Sequence record: NC_105825.1
Direction: 5' to 3' (one strand)
From: Escherichia phage ECOP18
DNA: 64,000 nucleotides
Shown: piece after piece, positions 22,830 through 33,386 of the stretch
How positions within the stretch are numbered: position 1 is the first letter of the stretch
How the letters are laid out: each line of letters starts with the position of its first letter
The notes under the pieces: model-generated
What the model saw: only the letters and a program-made list of their open reading frames with translations
Databases searched by the model: none
Told to the model about the DNA's origin: nothing
Translations under genes and position numbers: made by a program

Positions 22830-22906
22830 TGGAGCGGCTAGAGGGAATCGAACCCTACTCAGCGAGGCTTGGAAGGCCTGCGGCACAACCCGTGTGCTTA
22901 ACCGCT
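22830..22906 (-). tRNA. tRNA-Gly (TCC), tentative
   Basis: T-loop TTCGATT, anticodon loop CTTCCAA; acceptor register ambiguous by 1 nt. Confidence 0.45.
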
Positions 22907-23278: not shown

Positions 23279-23303
23279 ATTTTATTTCCTATTTAAGTTA
23301 ATT

Positions 23304-23380
23304 TGGGGTGGCTAGTGAAATTCGAATCCACATAGGCCTGATTCACAATCAGGATCATTAACCAATTATGATATAGCCAC
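23304..23380 (-). tRNA. tRNA-His (GTG)
   Basis: Acceptor GTGGCTA/TAGCCAC, anticodon stem CCTGA/TCAGG, loop TTGTGAA, T-loop TTCGAAT, discriminator C, CCA; no encoded G-1. Confidence 0.6.
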
Positions 23381-23611
23381 AATTGAAAACTCGCAGGGTT
23401 AGCGAAACCTTCCTCAATTAGCATGTTCTAGAATACTAATCAAGTTATCTCCTATTGCACGCAGCTCAAGACGAGTACGAATTTTCAATTGTGGCGGCTC
23501 TCAGAAACTCTTCTACTCTAGTCTTAGCAGCTTACTCCCGAACGCATGTCGGGGAAGTCTTACTAAGCGCATCAAATAGCACCGTTACACTTTGAGCCAT
23601 TGGTGTATTAA

Positions 23612-23700
23612 GAAGCAGAAGGACTTGAACCTTCACGAGATAGACCATTTATCTCAGCCGCTTTATGAGGTATGTTGCAGGGAGTGGATGTTCCCTATAA
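23612..23700 (-). ncRNA. tRNA-like element (T-arm GAAGG-TTCAAGT-CCTTC), no clean cloverleaf found
   Basis: Strong T-arm motif but I could not pair an acceptor stem by eye. Confidence 0.25.
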
Positions 23701-23746
23701 ACCTTTTAGGCAGCCCCGTCTACCGATTCCGGCATACTTCAGGATT

Positions 23747-23841
23747 TGGAGGTAGGTAAGGGGATCGAACCCTTACACCGTATCACTACGATCAACCGAT
23801 TTCAAGTCGGAGTCCAGCGCCAGCCATTGGATTGACCTACC
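23747..23841 (-). tRNA. tRNA-Ser (TGA), type II
   Basis: About 95 nt; acceptor GGTAGGT/ACCTACC, anticodon stem CCGA/TCGG, loop CTTGAAA, long variable arm, CCA. Confidence 0.5.
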
Positions 23842-23853
23842 ATATAAATTGTT

Positions 23854-23944
23854 TGGCGGAAGAGGAGAGATTTGAACTCTCAAGCCGTTTTACCAGTCAG
23901 CCACTTTCCAAGCGGTTTTCGTCACCAATTCGATTTGCTCTTCC
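23854..23944 (-). tRNA. tRNA-Ser (GGA), type II
   Basis: 91 nt; acceptor GGAAGAG/CTCTTCC perfect, T-arm GAGAG-TTCAAAT-CTCTC, anticodon loop TTGGAAA, CCA. Confidence 0.5.
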
Positions 23945-23964
23945 AATAACAAGATGATGCCTCT

Positions 23965-24045
23965 ATCACACCAGGCAGTTACGCCTCGCTGGGATTCGAA
24001 CCCATTAAAACAGCTCAACCGAGATAGTAGGTTTAATTTACTCTG
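23965..24045 (-). ncRNA. tRNA-like fragment (T-arm TGGG-TTCGAAT-CCCA) without a pairable acceptor
   Basis: T-arm motif only. Confidence 0.25.
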
Positions 24046-24056
24046 ACCATCAAATT

Positions 24057-24133
24057 TGGTGCGTGACAAGGGATTCGAACCCTCAAAACCCGACTTCTAA
24101 GGACGGTATGTATGCCAATTCCATCAATCACGC
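24057..24133 (-). tRNA. tRNA, type I length, anticodon loop reads CTTAGAA (UAG)
   Basis: Acceptor GCGTGAT/GTCACGC, T-arm GAGGG-TTCGAAT-CCCTT, CCA; D-arm weak; a Leu-type anticodon in a short-variable-arm scaffold. Confidence 0.45.
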
Positions 24134-24138
24134 GTATT

Positions 24139-24217
24139 TGGTGGAGAATAACGGAATCGAACCGTTCTGATGTCCTCGGTGCAAGCGAGGTGTCCACTCC
24201 ATGCAGACCCATTCCCC
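24139..24217 (-). tRNA. tRNA-Ala (TGC)
   Basis: Acceptor GGGGAAT/ATTCTCC with a G3-U70 wobble, anticodon stem CCTCG/CGAGG, loop CTTGCAC, CCA. Confidence 0.6.
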
Positions 24218-24455
24218 AAATTATTTAGTTTACTAAGGCTATTAGCTCGGCGTAACTACAGCACCTTCGCTTCGAGCGGAAGGAACCGCGTCATCTCGCA
24301 AACCCGATACACTATTCAGTTGCCACTGAATCTAGTGGACTAATCTAGAACTTCTCCCGAATCGTAGGGATCGTGCTTTTTGGCAGCCAGTCCTAGGTCG
24401 AACTAATACCTTAGTGAACTATGATGAGGATTTCTCCTCATCAATTTATATAAAT

Positions 24456-24484
24456 ATTATAACAAGAAATTAAGCATTAAGCAA
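24456..24484 (-). promoter_or_regulatory. early sigma70-type promoter (TTGCTT-17-TATAAT) driving a non-coding leader and tRNAs
   Basis: Same architecture; no CDS for about 240 nt downstream on the minus strand. Confidence 0.55.
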
Positions 24485-24502
24485 CTGCGTTTTTCTTGAA
24501 AT

Positions 24503-24581
24503 TGGTAGATCGCCTGGGACTCGAACCCAGAACCTTCCGATTAAAAGTCGGATGCTACTAAACCTATTGAGCTAGCGATCT
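24503..24581 (-). tRNA. tRNA-Lys (TTT)
   Basis: Acceptor AGATCGC/GCGATCT, anticodon stem TCCGA/TCGGA, loop CTTTTAA, T-arm CTGGG-TTCGAGT-CCCAG, CCA. Confidence 0.6.
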
Positions 24582-24586
24582 ATTAG

Positions 24587-24750
24587 TAACCATTATACAC
24601 TTCTTTAATAGAGTGGACTTTTAAGTAAGGGTGATTAGTACTAAACTCTACCATTACTTCATCCCAATTTTTACCATAATGAGCGAGTAAGGATTTTGAT
24701 GTATTCTTACCTAACCGTTTGTCACTTACTACTAATCGAAATACTTTCAT
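24587..24750 (-). CDS. small hypothetical protein (54 aa)
   Basis: Hand-translated MKVFRLVVSDKRLGK...; below the ORF-track cutoff. Confidence 0.3.
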
Positions 24751-24770
24751 TTCGAAATCCTCTATTAAAA

Positions 24771-24848
24771 TGGAAGCGGGTGCAGGAATCGAACCTACCT
24801 CTTTCTAGCTTATGAGACTAGCGATCTCTACCAGAGATCTAACCCGCA
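24771..24848 (-). tRNA. tRNA with CAT anticodon (Met/fMet/Ile2)
   Basis: D-stem GATC/GATC, anticodon stem CTAGT/GCTAG, loop CTCATAA, T-loop TTCGATT, CCA; U1-U72 unpaired. Confidence 0.55.
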
Positions 24849-24854
24849 ATTGTT

Positions 24855-24930
24855 TGGTCAGTGCGGCAGGACTCGAACCTGCGACCCGAAGCATCCAAGG
24901 CTCCCACGCTACCAACTGCGCTACGCACTG
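24855..24930 (-). tRNA. tRNA-Pro (TGG)
   Basis: Acceptor CAGTGCG/CGCACTG, D-stem GCGC, anticodon stem GGAGC/GCTTC, loop CTTGGAT, CCA. Confidence 0.6.
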
Positions 24931-24939
24931 TTAATTCTT

Positions 24940-25137
24940 TTATTGTGGAGGAATATTAATAATTCGTCCGTCTACACAATAAACGGTACTAGGAATTGTA
25001 CTATATATGTAGAAATTCTTTATATTACTCTCTCCGCCACAGAAATTTTTAGCAAATTCATACTCTTTATTAATGGTTGAGTCAAGTTTAAAACAACCAG
25101 TAAGTAGGAATACAGACAGCAGTAAAACTTTTTTCAT
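24940..25137 (-). CDS. small lipoprotein
   Basis: 65 aa; signal peptide with lipobox LLTGC; RBS in the leader. Confidence 0.5.
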   Translation of the reverse strand: MKKVLLLSVFLLTGCFKLDSTINKEYEFAKNFCGGESNIKNFYIYSTIPSTVYCVDGRIINIPPQ

Positions 25138-25169
25138 TTTGCTTTCCTTCTCAACACTTTATAAGGTAT

Positions 25170-25198
25170 ATTATACAGAGAATTAAGCATAATAGCAA
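25170..25198 (-). promoter_or_regulatory. early sigma70-type promoter (TTGCTA-17-TATAAT)
   Basis: Same architecture. Confidence 0.6.
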
Positions 25199-25337
25199 AT
25201 GAATTTTTAATAAATTTACTTATTGTGTAGGCCACCTGGAGGCTACCAACCCCACGGCTGACAAAGAAGTTTGCGAGACCTCTCTTAAGTGCCAGAATAG
25301 ACCCGCCGATCTATCGGAACCTACATAATAAGTAAAC

Positions 25338-25470
25338 TTTATAGTGTCATTCTAGACAGGACTCGAACCTGTTATCACTTGTGCGGACTTACGAGAACCA
25401 TTCTTTCACTCGAATCGAACGAGCTTCTGCCCTCGCCAAGCTGGTTTCCCCATCAACCACGCTAGAATGT
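25338..25470 (-). ncRNA. roughly 130-nt tRNA-like structured RNA, unresolved
   Basis: Ends ATTCTAG...CTAGAAT pair perfectly; two T-arm-like motifs (TTCGATT and TTCGAGT) inside; no CDS. Confidence 0.3.
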
Positions 25471-25632
25471 TTGATTGTTTTCAGTGCAAGAGTCCGAGTC
25501 TTGGACACGACCGCTTCGCAAGTACATAGGCAGCTTATCATGAGTCAGCACTTCCGAATTGCTAGCTCCGTGTTCTGCACTGAAATTTTATTAGTTTAAC
25601 CGTAAAGTATTATCTACTTCACCATTAATTGT

Positions 25633-25938
25633 TCAGCATTCTTCTGGGATTGCTGGTGTAGCCTTATATTCCCACCATTCAGAACCGTCGTATTCACCAC
25701 GTTCTAACCAAGTTCCATCAGTAAACCACACGTTACCATAAAGCAATTGCCCACCGAAACCAGAATCATATTTAAAGTCTAGATTATTTAGAAAATCTTC
25801 AATATCTTTTTCTGTATAACCTACGGGTAACACCCAAACTTCTTTGTCCCCATAATAACCGAATTCTATCTTAATACACTTAACTTCAGAATTAATATTC
25901 TTTAAGGCAAGTAACAATTCTTCTTTAGCATTAATCAT
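25633..25938 (-). CDS. hypothetical protein
   Basis: ORF track 101 aa. Confidence 0.5.
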   Translation of the reverse strand: MINAKEELLLALKNINSEVKCIKIEFGYYGDKEVWVLPVGYTEKDIEDFLNNLDFKYDSGFGGQLLYGNVWFTDGTWLERGEYDGSEWWEYKATPAIPEEC

Positions 25939-26236: not shown

Positions 26237-26338
26237 GCTTGTTTCCTCAGTTATTAATGAAAATGGTATCTGTGACTGAATTCGATGTCAGCAATGATAG
26301 CTGGTTGGCTACCGGTTTACTTAACTCTACACAGAATT

Positions 26339-27006: not shown

Positions 27007-27099
27007 TTTGGTGCACCCTGTTCGTATCGAACGAACCTCTCAAGCTCTTCAGGCAAGCGCTAATCCATCTCAGCTAAAGGTGCAAATTTTGGCAAACCT

Positions 27100-27170
27100 A
27101 CTAGGACTTGAACCTAGACCGTACGGTTTTGGAGACCGACATGCTGTCCAGTAACACTCTAGGAATGCAG
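27100..27170 (-). ncRNA. tRNA-like element (T-arm CTAGG-TTCAAGT-CCTAG), acceptor not pairable
   Basis: T-arm motif and an encoded CCA but no matching 5' acceptor strand. Confidence 0.25.
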
Positions 27171-28805: not shown

Positions 28806-28884
28806 TTGGTGGCTCCCCGAGGATTCGAACCTACGTACCTTCCGGTTATGAGCCGGGTGCTCATACCATATGAGCTTGAGAACC
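28806..28884 (-). tRNA. tRNA with CAT anticodon (third CAT tRNA)
   Basis: Acceptor GGTTCTC/GGGAGCC with G-U pairs, D-stem GCTC/GAGC, anticodon loop CTCATAA, T-loop TTCGAAT, CCA; T-stem weak. Confidence 0.45.
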
Positions 28885-32589: not shown

Positions 32590-33084
32590 TTTAAGTATTT
32601 TTAAGAACTCTCGTAAAAACTCTTAAAAATACAGACGATACCGGGAGAGTCATAAGTCTCACTCATTAAGTATTTCAAGACAAAATACAGTAACGTCTAT
32701 TATTTTCCAGTTTAAGTCAGGGTGACTTAGTGGTTATGTCCTGCGGTATATTGAGGACTCGGTTAGGCTTGGGGTCATGACTTCCCACCTTTTGCTGCTA
32801 CTCAACAGGAGTTATCGCGAATTACCTGTGCTATTGTGCACCATTAGTGACATCTCTCATGTCAGCATTTCCCACTTTGTGGATAGCTTGAAAAACTACT
32901 CCGATATGGAGAAAGAACTTCACTATCCTAGAATACCTTCTAAAGTTCTTCTTTAGCCTGGACATAGTTAAATCGTAATAAAACTATTCAGCAGACTGGT
33001 TGGTTAGTCTGGAACCAACTACCGCGTGGTTTAGGCAGTGCGCAACTAACCTCGGAAGCTTTTATGTTAAAAGCATCAGTTATC

Positions 33085-33170
33085 CAGTTCTTACCGACCG
33101 TAGGATTCGAACCTACATCTTCCACCAGTTACGGCTTGATAATACCAATTATACTAGGACGGCAGTGTTA
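33085..33170 (-). ncRNA. tRNA-like element (T-arm GTAGG-TTCGAAT-CCTAC), no clean cloverleaf
   Basis: T-arm motif inside an 830-bp ORF-free stretch that is transcribed from the promoter at 33387. Confidence 0.25.
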
Positions 33171-33386
33171 CTACATAAGTGATTTCCACACCCCACTATT
33201 TATAAATCAGAGAAGAGTTTAGGGGAGAGGTTTCAGACGCCTCATTTTACACGTTCTAGCCACTAACCGGGATTGCCGCCCCCTGTGTACTAGTTTTACA
33301 ACTAACCCACCGACTCTATTCAATGCGCTCCGGTTGGGATTCTGCACTCAGCGTAATCGGCTCGCTGTTCCCTAATTTATGAATAT

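What the first reader, a model, noticed from the sequence alone, without database searches (positions are those of the whole stretch)
23385..25625. tRNA-like fragments and ORF-free transcribed stretches between tRNA genes
Several segments (23612-23700, 23965-24045, 24225-24420, 25200-25625 and 27100-27170) contain good T-arm motifs (GGTTCGANTCC) or paired termini but do not fold into a complete cloverleaf by eye. One is about 130 nt long, with perfectly paired ends and two T-arm-like motifs. They lie downstream of early promoters, so they are probably transcribed. Candidates are degenerate tRNAs, tRNA-derived regulatory RNAs or processing substrates.
Basis: inference. Interest (0 to 1): 0.5.

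Follow-up and report, generated by a model that had tools for sequence, protein, structure and literature searches.

The report
Phage T5 stable tRNA-like RNAs
The ORF-free stretches between the tRNA genes are the small "stable RNAs" already annotated in phage T5 (RNAIII, RNAI, RNA1, RNA2H, RNAIV, RNA2): conserved folded RNAs, two built on a tRNA frame, whose function is still unknown.

Summary
The window is a T5-like phage (Tequintavirus) with its tRNA cluster on the minus strand. The flagged stretches match, at 85-99% identity and in the same order, six misc_RNA features of the reference T5 and BF23 GenBank records. Those records label them "stable RNA with unknown functions" or "tRNA-like stable RNA". 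They are RNAIII 23382-23487, RNAI 23492-23598, RNA1 23599-23743, RNA2H 24237-24408, RNAIV 25224-25326 and RNA2 25345-25469. The segment 27100-27170 is simply tRNA-Trp.

The RNAs are not decaying pseudogenes. Their helices covary across genera, and every mechanical ORF over them is broken in relatives. RNA1 and RNA2 keep a tRNA frame of acceptor stem, D arm, anticodon stem and T arm. A conserved structured insert of 48-60 nt replaces the anticodon loop, so they cannot decode.

Two points go beyond the existing annotation:
- Two more conserved stretches closed by a terminal stem (23945-24056 and 25470-25592) are annotated in none of the four records I inspected.
- RNA2 has relatives in T4-like Acinetobacter phages and in a 164-kb uncultured phage contig. 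None of the RNAs matches an Rfam family.

Verdict: real, but already known. Function remains open. A tRNA-mimic or decoy role is my preferred guess and is untested.

The parts
23382..23487 (-). RNAIII, a 106-nt stable RNA. A 12-bp terminal stem encloses three hairpins. Its 3' end abuts the 5' end of tRNA-His.
   Evidence: 105 of 106 bases identical to T5 misc_RNA rnaIII. Fold z-score -2.9. Too little variation among relatives to test covariation.
23492..23598 (-). RNAI, a 107-nt stable RNA. It runs from 5' GGCUC to GAGCC-GCCA 3', that is, a 5-bp terminal stem followed by a tRNA-like GCCA end. Its central hairpins differ between genera.
   Evidence: 98 of 107 bases identical to T5 rnaI. 4 of 19 predicted pairs keep pairing through changes on both sides.
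23599..23743 (-). RNA1, a tRNA-like stable RNA of about 144 nt. It has an acceptor stem (23735-23740 with 23612-23617), a class-II-type D arm, an anticodon stem, a long variable arm (23637-23655) and a T arm (23618-23634). The anticodon loop is replaced by a 48-nt insert carrying a hairpin (23678-23697) with the near-invariant loop AACAUCCACU (9 of 10 positions identical in all 17 sequences).
   Evidence: Homologous to T5 rna1. 98.3% of cells paired; 11 of 32 pairs changed on both sides, against 1-2 in slid controls.
23747..23944 (-). Context: two genuine tRNA-Ser genes (23747-23841 and 23854-23944) that ARAGORN misses at default settings.
   Evidence: Annotated as tRNA-Ser in T5_ev212. Weak hits to the Rfam tRNA clan. 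ARAGORN finds one of them at a relaxed threshold.
23945..24056 (-). Conserved spacer, unannotated in the records inspected, between tRNA-Leu and tRNA-Ser. It has a T-arm-like hairpin (UGGG UUCGAAU CCCA, motif at 23992-24002), a second hairpin and a short closing stem. In T5 itself this site holds the HNH endonuclease gene hegC.
   Evidence: 97-100% identical in the related phage loci that lack hegC, and unannotated in BF23. A Klebsiella phage copy keeps both hairpins through compensatory changes: UGGG/CCCA becomes CAGG/CCUG and AGGC/GCCU becomes GGGC/GCCC. Fold z-score only -0.1. This is the weakest part.
24237..24408 (-). RNA2H, a 172-nt stable RNA. A 10-bp closing stem (UAUUAGUUCG/CGAGCUAAUA) encloses four hairpins. 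It lies just downstream of promoter P13b and a leader hairpin.
   Evidence: 167 of 172 bases identical to T5 rna2H. Fold z-score -2.4. 9 of 49 pairs keep pairing through changes on both sides; the 3' hairpin has a different sequence in Epseptimavirus phages but still pairs.
24430..24503 (-). Early promoter P13b, the homologue of the T5 feature of that name. It drives RNA2H, tRNA-Ala, tRNA-Leu and the genes beyond.
   Evidence: 71 of 75 bases identical to the annotated T5 promoter P13b.
25143..25217 (-). Early promoter P13a. It lies downstream of RNAIV and RNA2 and so does not drive them.
   Evidence: 68 of 75 bases identical to T5 P13a. TTGCTA, 17 nt, TATAAT found at 25198-25170.
25224..25326 (-). 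RNAIV, a 103-nt stable RNA. A terminal stem encloses three hairpins.
   Evidence: 100 of 103 bases identical to T5 rnaIV. 9 of 36 predicted pairs changed on both sides.
25345..25469 (-). RNA2, a 125-nt tRNA-like stable RNA. It has an 8-bp acceptor stem followed by ACA, a D arm, a 5-bp anticodon-type stem and a T arm (25356-25372). The anticodon loop is replaced by a ~55-nt insert holding a second T-loop hairpin (25408-25424) and the conserved stretch UGAAAGAAUGGUUCUCGUAAGUCCGCA.
   Evidence: 121 of 125 bases identical to T5 rna2. Covariance model R1: 92.9% of cells paired, 23 of 31 pairs changed on both sides, against 6-11 in slid controls. Ordinary tRNAs align end to end with the model. Relatives occur in T4-like Acinetobacter phages and in locus L066.
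25470..25592 (-). Unannotated element closed by an ~11-bp stem (UUUCAGUGCAG / UUGCACUGAAA, about 25478-25586), between the ORF homologous to T5.067 and RNA2. A candidate additional stable RNA.
   Evidence: 97.6-100% identical across the full-length matches in related phage loci, and unannotated in T5 and BF23. Fold z-score -1.8. Too little variation to test covariation. The ORFs across it are broken in relatives.
27090..27166 (-). tRNA-Trp (CCA), an ordinary tRNA gene and not a fragment.
   Evidence: ARAGORN. Rfam tRNA at 36.3 bits, above the gathering score. Annotated as tRNA-Trp in T5 and T5_ev212.

Best explanation
The flagged stretches are genes for the small stable RNAs of T5-type phages: RNAIII, RNAI, RNA1, RNA2H, RNAIV and RNA2. 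Two further elements of the same style are not annotated.

Shown here:
- Each stretch is the positional and sequence homologue of an annotated T5/BF23 misc_RNA.
- Each folds into a compact structure closed by pairing of its own 5' and 3' ends.
- The helices are maintained by compensatory substitutions in the five RNAs that vary enough to test (RNAIII varies too little).
- None of the stretches is protein-coding.
- RNA1 and RNA2 are built on a complete tRNA frame in which a conserved structured insert replaces the 7-nt anticodon loop.

Inferred:
- The RNAs are transcribed on the minus strand within the polycistronic early tRNA transcripts. RNA2H is read from P13b, and the others from promoters further upstream.
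- They are probably cut out by the host tRNA-processing enzymes, RNase P at the 5' ends and 3' trimming. The reasons are that they abut tRNAs and each other with gaps of 0-4 nt, and that they present acceptor-like terminal helices, some ending in NCCA.
- They accumulate because they are compactly folded.

RNA1 and RNA2 have no anticodon loop, so they cannot decode. My best guess at their role is that they act as tRNA look-alikes that bind a protein which normally handles tRNA, with the conserved insert as the specific contact. The partner could be a host tRNA-targeting defence nuclease, a modification or processing enzyme, or a phage translation-related factor. I hold this at about 0.25. The GenBank annotation itself says 'unknown functions'.
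For: Identity and synteny:
- The window is 99.9% identical to Tequintavirus phages.
- Each stretch maps onto T5 AY543070 misc_RNAs rnaIII, rnaI, rna1, rna2H, rnaIV and rna2, which carry the notes 'stable RNA with unknown functions' or 'tRNA-like stable RNA'. BF23 has the same set.

Structure under selection:
- RNA1: 98.3% of cells paired; 11 of 32 pairs changed on both sides, against 1-2 in slid controls.
- RNA2 family: 92.9% paired; 23 of 31 pairs changed on both sides, against 6-11 in slid controls.
- RNAIV 9 of 36 pairs, RNA2H 9 of 49, RNAI 4 of 19.

tRNA frame:
- Model R1 aligns true tRNAs end to end at 15-30 bits.

Not coding: every mechanical ORF across these stretches acquires stops or frameshifts in T5, Epseptimavirus or Klebsiella phage relatives.

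Conserved apical sequences:
- AACAUCCACU in RNA1, where 9 of 10 loop positions are identical in all 17 sequences.
- AAUGGUUCNCGUAANUCC in RNA2, kept from T5-like phages to T4-like Acinetobacter phages with only isolated substitutions.

Processing layout: RNA1 3' end at 23599 and RNAI 5' end at 23598; RNAIII 3' end at 23382 and tRNA-His 5' end at 23381.
Against: - I have no expression data. 'Stable RNA' rests on the depositors' annotation and on 1980s biochemistry that I recall but could not read in the paper library.
- The alignment used for the RNA2 counts was fitted to the model, which favours the structure.
- Most sequences are closely related, so each compensatory change counts several times.
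- RNAIII and the element at 25470-25592 vary too little to test.
- The element at 23945-24056 folds no better than shuffled sequence (z = -0.1).
- For the decoy idea specifically: no partner is identified and no conserved neighbouring protein gene exists. The PARIS study traced the T5 suppressor to a fragment carrying tRNA-Pro, fMet, Lys and Val and then to tRNA-Lys, not to these RNAs, although a deletion covering several of them was among those tested (PMC11464382). The same paper calls the deletions in the T5 tRNA region 'non-essential'.
Confidence: 0.9

Rival explanations
1. They are decaying tRNA pseudogenes or leftovers of rearrangements driven by homing endonucleases in the tRNA cluster. 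On this view they are transcribed only because they sit inside tRNA operons and have no function of their own.
For: - The tRNA cluster is mosaic. T5 carries HNH endonuclease genes that are absent here, and the stretch 23945-24056 occupies the hegC site.
- tRNA-Val is missing relative to T5.
- The copy in Acinetobacter phage 133 lacks a convincing acceptor stem and D arm.
- 23945-24056 looks like a 3' tRNA half and folds no better than chance.
Against: - Compensatory substitutions maintain the helices in RNA1, RNA2, RNAIV and RNA2H.
- The insert loops are invariant or nearly so, while the stems around them change.
- RNA1 is kept as far as Klebsiella Sugarlandvirus. RNA2 is kept as far as Myunavirus, T4-like Acinetobacter phages and a 164-kb uncultured phage.
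- The stable RNAs are better conserved between this phage and T5 than several neighbouring tRNA genes.
Confidence: 0.06
2. They are structural spacers that serve only in cis. They would fold so that the polycistronic precursor is cut correctly and neighbouring tRNAs mature efficiently, and their stability would be a by-product.
For: - They abut tRNAs or each other with gaps of 0-4 nt.
- Every element is closed by a terminal helix, which would isolate the folding of neighbouring tRNAs.
- No antisense targets for the conserved loops occur in the 64-kb window.
Against: - A spacer role needs structure but not invariant loop sequences over long evolutionary distances.
- In the 164-kb contig L066, the RNA2 relative has no tRNA gene anywhere in the 10-kb locus, so it is kept without tRNAs to process.
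- In the other phage genera examined, many tRNAs sit 5-10 nt apart with no such spacer.
Confidence: 0.2
3. RNA1 and RNA2 are genuine tRNA genes interrupted by small introns that are spliced out to give decoding tRNAs.
For: ARAGORN with introns allowed reports tRNA-Phe(aaa) with a 41-nt intron for RNA1, and tRNA-Arg(ccg) with a 48-nt intron for RNA2. One related phage record annotates a tRNA-Leu over the RNA1 region (H43).
Against: - The inserts are far too short for the self-splicing group I introns known in bacterial and phage tRNA genes (established knowledge). No intron family matched even at E <= 10.
- The putative anticodon nucleotides are not conserved: CCUAAAAGG here against CCGAAUAGG in T5. 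The insert itself is the most conserved part.
- The GenBank features give the stable species as 144 and 125 nt, which are the unspliced lengths.
- RNA1 combines a long class-II variable arm with a 'Phe' anticodon, which fits no bacterial tRNA identity set (established knowledge).
Confidence: 0.03
4. The stretches encode small proteins, as some automated annotations of close relatives suggest.
For: Phage vB_EcoS_MM-1 annotates plus-strand 'hypothetical proteins' across RNAI, RNA1 and RNA2H. Mechanical ORFs of 30-72 aa exist here.
Against: - All eight ORFs examined are interrupted by stop codons or frameshifts in T5, BF23, Epseptimavirus or Klebsiella phage homologues.
- The substitutions follow base pairing, not codon positions.
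- Several of these ORFs overlap true tRNA genes on the opposite strand.
Confidence: 0.01

Closest known systems
Bacteriophage T5 and BF23 stable RNAs RNAI, RNAIII, RNAIV, RNA2H and tRNA-like RNA1, RNA2, RNA3 (GenBank AY543070, AY692264, NC_042564)
   Same: Same genes. They occur in the same order between the same tRNAs, with 85-99% identity, the same lengths and the same terminal stems.
   Different: Nothing essential. In this phage the spacer at 23945-24056 sits where T5 has hegC, and tRNA-Val is absent. The elements at 23945-24056 and 25470-25592 are not annotated in those records.
Phage T4 species 1 and species 2 RNAs (rnaC, rnaD) in the T4 tRNA cluster
   Same: Same kind of thing: small stable RNAs of unknown function, 119-139 nt, encoded inside a phage tRNA cluster directly next to a tRNA gene. 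rnaC ends in a T-arm-like hairpin.
   Different: No detectable homology. The RNA2 covariance model hits only the true tRNAs in the T4 locus and not rnaC or rnaD. BLAST finds no similarity either.
Canonical tRNA (Rfam RF00005)
   Same: RNA1 and RNA2 keep the acceptor stem, D arm, anticodon stem, variable region and T arm with a GGUUCRANNCC T loop. Some members end in NCCA.
   Different: A 48-60 nt structured insert replaces the 7-nt anticodon loop. There is no RF00005 hit at E <= 10. The acceptor sequence is not conserved, so no constant aminoacylation identity is apparent.
Bacterial YrlA (Y RNA-like) tRNA mimics and the tRNA-like domain of tmRNA
   Same: Non-decoding RNAs that imitate part of a tRNA in order to engage proteins that handle tRNA (from established knowledge; not tested here).
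   Different: No Rfam match to YrlA or tmRNA and ARAGORN finds no tmRNA. In RNA1 and RNA2 the RNA ends form the acceptor stem, and the extra module sits in the anticodon position. The window contains no Ro/Rsr or SmpB partner gene that I noticed.

Membership tests
T5-type stable RNAs (rnaI, rnaIII, rnaIV, rna2H, rna1, rna2) | Sequence homology to the annotated T5/BF23 features | tested here: met
   Identities of 105/106, 98/107, 122/140, 167/172, 100/103 and 121/125.
T5-type stable RNAs (rnaI, rnaIII, rnaIV, rna2H, rna1, rna2) | Same position and strand within the tRNA cluster | tested here: met
   The gene order is tRNA-Ser, RNA1, RNAI, RNAIII, tRNA-His; then P13b, RNA2H, tRNA-Ala; then RNA2, RNAIV, P13a. 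This is the same as in AY543070 and NC_042564.
T5-type stable RNAs (rnaI, rnaIII, rnaIV, rna2H, rna1, rna2) | Accumulate as discrete stable RNA species in infected cells | not testable with these tools
   Rests on the depositors' annotation 'stable RNA'. No RNA data are available here.
Canonical tRNA (RF00005) | Acceptor stem, D arm, anticodon stem and T arm with a T loop | tested here: met
   Met for RNA1 and RNA2 only: helices supported by covariation, the T-loop motif, and end-to-end alignment of real tRNAs to model R1. RNAI, RNAIII, RNAIV and RNA2H have only a terminal stem.
Canonical tRNA (RF00005) | Seven-nucleotide anticodon loop with a conserved anticodon, scoring above the family threshold | tested here: not met
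   No RF00005 hit at E <= 10 on any of the six RNAs. ARAGORN finds them only as 'intron-containing'. The putative anticodon is not conserved.
tRNA gene with group I intron | Self-splicing intron (P1-P9 core, about 200 nt or more) in the anticodon loop | tested here: not met
   The inserts are 41-60 nt. No intron family matched in Rfam at E <= 10.
tmRNA / YrlA tRNA mimics | Match to the family's covariance model | tested here: not met
   No such hits. ARAGORN reports no tmRNA.
T4 rnaC / rnaD | Homology to T4 species 1 or species 2 RNA | tested here: not met
   Model R1 hits only tRNAs in the T4 locus L007. The sequences show no similarity by eye. Only RNA2 was tested with a model.

The most novel reading that the evidence does not exclude
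RNA2, and by analogy RNA1, may define an undescribed family of phage tRNA mimics. The family would consist of a complete tRNA frame whose anticodon loop is replaced by a conserved module (a T-loop hairpin plus UGAAAGAAUGGUUCNCGUAANUCC). It is shared by T5-like Demerecviridae, T4-like Acinetobacter phages and at least one other large phage, and it is absent from Rfam. On this reading the RNA acts in trans. It could be a decoy or inhibitor of a tRNA-targeting host defence nuclease, or a cofactor for a translation-related protein. In two phages the element sits next to a small RF-1-domain protein or a YqeY-like protein.
Probability: 0.2. Interest if true: 0.7.

Novelty: already known. Interest (0 to 1): 0.3.

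Why it matters
Phage tRNAs have recently been shown to defeat bacterial defence systems that cut tRNA; the PARIS work on T5 tRNA-Lys is one example (PMC11464382). The T5 stable RNAs sit in the same cluster and are under clear structural selection. Two of them are tRNA look-alikes that cannot decode, yet the reference T5 and BF23 records still label them 'unknown functions'.

The mapping given here, the covariation-supported structures and the cross-family relatives of RNA2 make these RNAs concrete candidates for deletion and pull-down experiments. For genome annotation, the practical point is that these stretches should be labelled as ncRNA genes. Some pipelines currently label them 'hypothetical proteins'.

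Tried and rejected
1. Rfam at gathering thresholds and at E <= 10 gave no family for any of the RNAs. The only hits were to the tRNA clan, on real tRNAs.
2. Literature searches for the T5 stable RNAs in the open-access library found no paper on their function. One search was too broad to be useful. The original papers from the 1980s are not held.
3. Homology of RNA2 to T4 rnaC/rnaD was rejected.
4. A bacterial origin for RNA2 was not supported. The core pattern in 185,579 genomes gave three hits, none followed by a T-arm sequence, so I read them as chance matches. The metagenome scan added only T5-like and Klebsiella-phage-like copies plus hits of the same kind.
5. Antisense targets for eleven conserved loops or single-stranded segments were sought in the window. 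Nine matched only their own gene; the two shortest also had scattered matches at up to two mismatches, which I did not follow up.
6. Protein coding was rejected.
7. Assigning RNA1 to a specific tRNA ancestor was inconclusive. It resembles class II tRNAs in general and its D loop is Leu-like, but no single best match stands out.
8. No conserved protein neighbour of RNA2 was found. The ORF upstream of RNA2 in this window has no Pfam match. The neighbouring ORFs match YqeY in L066 and RF-1 in ZZ1, and other domains or nothing in the remaining phages.
9. MAFFT alone misaligned the divergent RNA2 copies, so a covariance-model alignment was used instead. Its bias towards the model structure is noted.


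Full report
**What the window is.** The 2.4-kb region 23300-25700 is 99.8-99.9% identical to Escherichia phages vB_EcoS_MM-1, T5_ev212 and EC148 (genus Tequintavirus). It matches 593 phage records in all. ARAGORN finds 21 tRNA genes between 21.2 and 32.6 kb, all on the minus strand. Rfam confirms these and adds a few more. The finding therefore lies inside the tRNA cluster of a T5-like phage, and everything relevant reads on the minus strand.

**Checking the observation.**
- The T-loop motif GGTTCRANNCC occurs 23 times in the window, always on the minus strand, against 0.46 expected.
- Nineteen of the copies lie in sequences that ARAGORN, Rfam or a related record's annotation identify as tRNA genes. 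Three lie in the flagged stretches (23621-23631, 23992-24002, 25359-25369). One lies in the distant RNAX region.
- The RNA 'about 130 nt long with perfectly paired ends and two T-arm-like motifs' is at 25345-25469. It has an 8-bp terminal helix and two T-loop hairpins.
- The other stretches have paired termini but no T arm.
- Segment 27100-27170 is not a fragment. It is tRNA-Trp.
ARAGORN misses them at default settings.

**What the stretches are.** The reference T5 record AY543070, its st0 derivative AY692264 and the BF23 tRNA-region record NC_042564 annotate a series of misc_RNA features in exactly these gaps. They are rnaIII, rnaI, rna1, rna2H, rnaIV, rna2, rna3 and rnaX, with the notes 'stable RNA with unknown functions' or 'tRNA-like stable RNA with unknown functions'. 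Local alignment maps them onto the window as follows:

| RNA | Window coordinates | Identity to T5 |
|---|---|---|
| RNAIII | 23382-23487 | 105/106 |
| RNAI | 23492-23598 | 98/107 |
| RNA1 | 23599 to about 23743 | 122/140 |
| RNA2H | 24237-24408 | 167/172 |
| RNAIV | 25224-25326 | 100/103 |
| RNA2 | 25345-25469 | 121/125 |
| RNA3 | 26264-26336 (outside the finding) | 72/73 |

Promoters P13b (24430-24503) and P13a (25143-25217) map as well. RNA2H follows P13b directly. RNAIV and RNA2 lie upstream of P13a, so a promoter further up must serve them. The six RNAs of the finding are an already annotated feature of T5 biology. From memory, they were described by the Ksenzenko, Kryukov and Bayev groups in the early 1980s. 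I could not read those papers in the library.

**Are they real, selected RNAs?** I collected homologues from Tequintavirus, Epseptimavirus (TrudiGerster, phiR2-01), Sugarlandvirus (Klebsiella phage GlastoCabaret), Myunavirus (Pectobacterium phage My1), IMG/VR and metagenomes.

*RNA1.* On a 17-sequence alignment, a tRNA-style structure has 98.3% of cells paired. Eleven of its 32 pairs change on both sides, against 1-2 when the 3' partners are slid by 1-3 columns. No shuffle out of 500 reaches the observed covariation score. The structure has these parts:
- an acceptor stem;
- a 3-bp D stem with a class-II-type D loop;
- a 5-bp anticodon stem;
- a long variable arm;
- a T arm.

The anticodon loop is replaced by 48 nt. 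This insert forms a further stem and a hairpin whose stem covaries (AGGG/CCCU, UAGG/CCUA, GCAG/CUGC). Its loop AACAUCCACU is nearly invariant: 9 of its 10 positions are identical in all 17 sequences.

*RNA2.* MAFFT misaligned the divergent copies. I therefore built a covariance model (R1) and aligned 18 distinct homologues to it.
- 92.9% of cells are paired and 23 of 31 pairs change on both sides, against 6-11 in slid controls.
- The covariation score is 0.517, against at most 0.108 in the slid controls.
- This alignment is fitted to the model and so leans towards the structure. Even so, the acceptor, D, anticodon-type and T stems are visibly rebuilt with different sequences in different lineages.
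- The same model aligns ordinary tRNAs end to end at 15-30 bits. This shows directly that RNA2 has tRNA architecture apart from its ~55-nt insert.

*The other RNAs.* RNAIV has 9 of 36 predicted pairs with compensatory changes, RNA2H 9 of 49 and RNAI 4 of 19. RNAIII varies too little to test.

*Coding potential.* All eight mechanical ORFs that cross these regions are interrupted by stops or frameshifts in relatives. The 'hypothetical proteins' annotated on the plus strand in phage MM-1 are therefore spurious.

**Two stretches that are not annotated.**
It lies between tRNA-Leu and tRNA-Ser and is 97-100% identical in the related phage loci that lack the T5 HNH endonuclease gene hegC, which occupies this site in T5. 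A copy in a Klebsiella phage keeps the T-arm-like hairpin and the next hairpin through compensatory changes. However, the single sequence folds no better than shuffles (z = -0.1), and only one divergent homologue is available. I rate it a plausible structured element and no more.
- *25470-25592.* This stretch is closed by an ~11-bp stem and is 97.6-100% identical across the full-length matches in related phage loci, but it offers no informative variation. It is a candidate further stable RNA.

**How they most likely work.**
- The layout is what one expects of RNAs cut out of a polycistronic tRNA precursor. RNA1 ends at 23599 and RNAI starts at 23598. RNAIII ends at 23382 and tRNA-His starts at 23381.
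- Each RNA closes on itself with an acceptor-like helix.
- RNAI ends in GCCA and RNA3 in ACCA. The Klebsiella-phage RNA2 ends in UCCA.

Processing by host RNase P and 3' trimming is an inference from this layout, not something shown here. RNA1 and RNA2 cannot decode. The most conserved parts are the inserts, and the acceptor sequences vary freely. I therefore favour a role in trans as tRNA look-alikes that bind a protein which handles tRNA, with the insert as the specific contact.

I found no partner. There are no antisense targets in the window and no conserved neighbouring gene. The PARIS study traced the T5 suppressor to tRNA-Lys, although a deletion covering RNAIII, RNAI, RNA1 and RNA2H was among those tested (PMC11464382). 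The mechanism stays at roughly one chance in four. A purely cis role as folding spacers is the main rival.

**Beyond the known annotation.**
- The RNA2 core matched Acinetobacter phage 133, a T4-like phage, in an unannotated gap between tRNA-Gly and tRNA-Cys.
- Model R1 then found copies in Acinetobacter phages Acj9, ZZ1 and AB1I1M-1 at 60-75 bits.
- It also found a full-length copy at 108.7 bits in a 164-kb IMG/VR contig (L066 3708-3831). All four tRNA-type stems there are rebuilt, and there is no tRNA gene in the 10-kb locus.
- The stretch AAUGGUUCNCGUAANUCC is almost unchanged throughout.
- None of the T5-type RNAs matches an Rfam family.
- A pattern scan of 185,579 bacterial and archaeal genomes found no bacterial counterpart.
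- T4's own stable RNAs rnaC and rnaD are analogous in kind but not homologous.

**Verdict.** One flagged segment is an ordinary tRNA. It is wrong in suggesting degeneration.

Novelty is 'already known'. Two modest additions are the pair of unannotated elements and the cross-family RNA2 relatives, which are missing from Rfam. Interest is 0.3. A specialist would not be surprised that these RNAs exist. Their unknown function is a long-standing small puzzle, and the recent work on tRNA-targeting defence systems makes it testable.

Noticed in passing
L006 2466-2575 (Acinetobacter phage 133); L063 407-522 (Acj9); L064 392-512 (ZZ1); L065 397-513 (AB1I1M-1); L066 3708-3831 (164-kb IMG/VR contig): Relatives of T5 RNA2 occur in T4-like Acinetobacter phages and in an uncultured large phage. 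The stems covary and the core AAUGGUUCNCGUAANUCC is nearly unchanged. None is annotated as an RNA and none matches an Rfam family.
   Followed up: partly
L064 528-758 and L066 3005-3508: In phage ZZ1 the RNA2-like element is followed by a 76-aa RF-1-domain protein (Pfam E = 3e-10). In contig L066 it is preceded by a YqeY-like protein (E = 1e-15). Both are translation-related small proteins, but the neighbourhood is not conserved in other phages.
   Followed up: partly
window 26264-26336 (-): Homologue of T5 RNA3 (72 of 73 bases identical), a 73-nt tRNA-like RNA ending in ACCA with a degenerate T loop (CAUCGAAU). It lies next to tRNA-Asn, outside the finding's coordinates.
   Followed up: partly
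window 32590-33219 (-): Homologue of T5 RNAX, a ~700-nt 'stable RNA with unknown functions' adjoining tRNA-Arg. It contains a tRNA-like element that Rfam scores as tRNA at 35.5 bits (33092-33163).
   Followed up: no
window 22833-22906, 23747-23841, 23854-23944, 28810-28884 (-): Four tRNA genes are missed by ARAGORN at default settings: tRNA-Gly, two tRNA-Ser, and a gene that by position I infer to be the T5 tRNA-Ile2 (CAU) homologue. Rfam or the annotations of related phages support all four.
   Followed up: partly
window 24499-24510 and 23945-24056, compared with L004: Relative to T5, this phage lacks tRNA-Val between P13b and tRNA-Lys. It also lacks the HNH homing endonuclease genes hegC and hegD in this part of the cluster. 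Several tRNA genes (Ser, Leu, Ala, Lys, Asn) are much more diverged from T5 than the stable RNAs, which points to mosaic exchange within the cluster.
   Followed up: no
window 24422-24443: A 9-bp hairpin lies between promoter P13b and the 5' end of RNA2H. On the plus strand it scores as terminator-like; on the minus strand it would be a leader hairpin at the start of the P13b transcript.
   Followed up: no
L002 (phage vB_EcoS_MM-1), locus positions 1156-2044: Automated annotation of a 99.9%-identical phage places plus-strand 'hypothetical protein' CDSs across RNAI, RNA1 and RNA2H, and marks several tRNAs as pseudogenes. These CDSs are not conserved as ORFs in relatives.
   Followed up: yes
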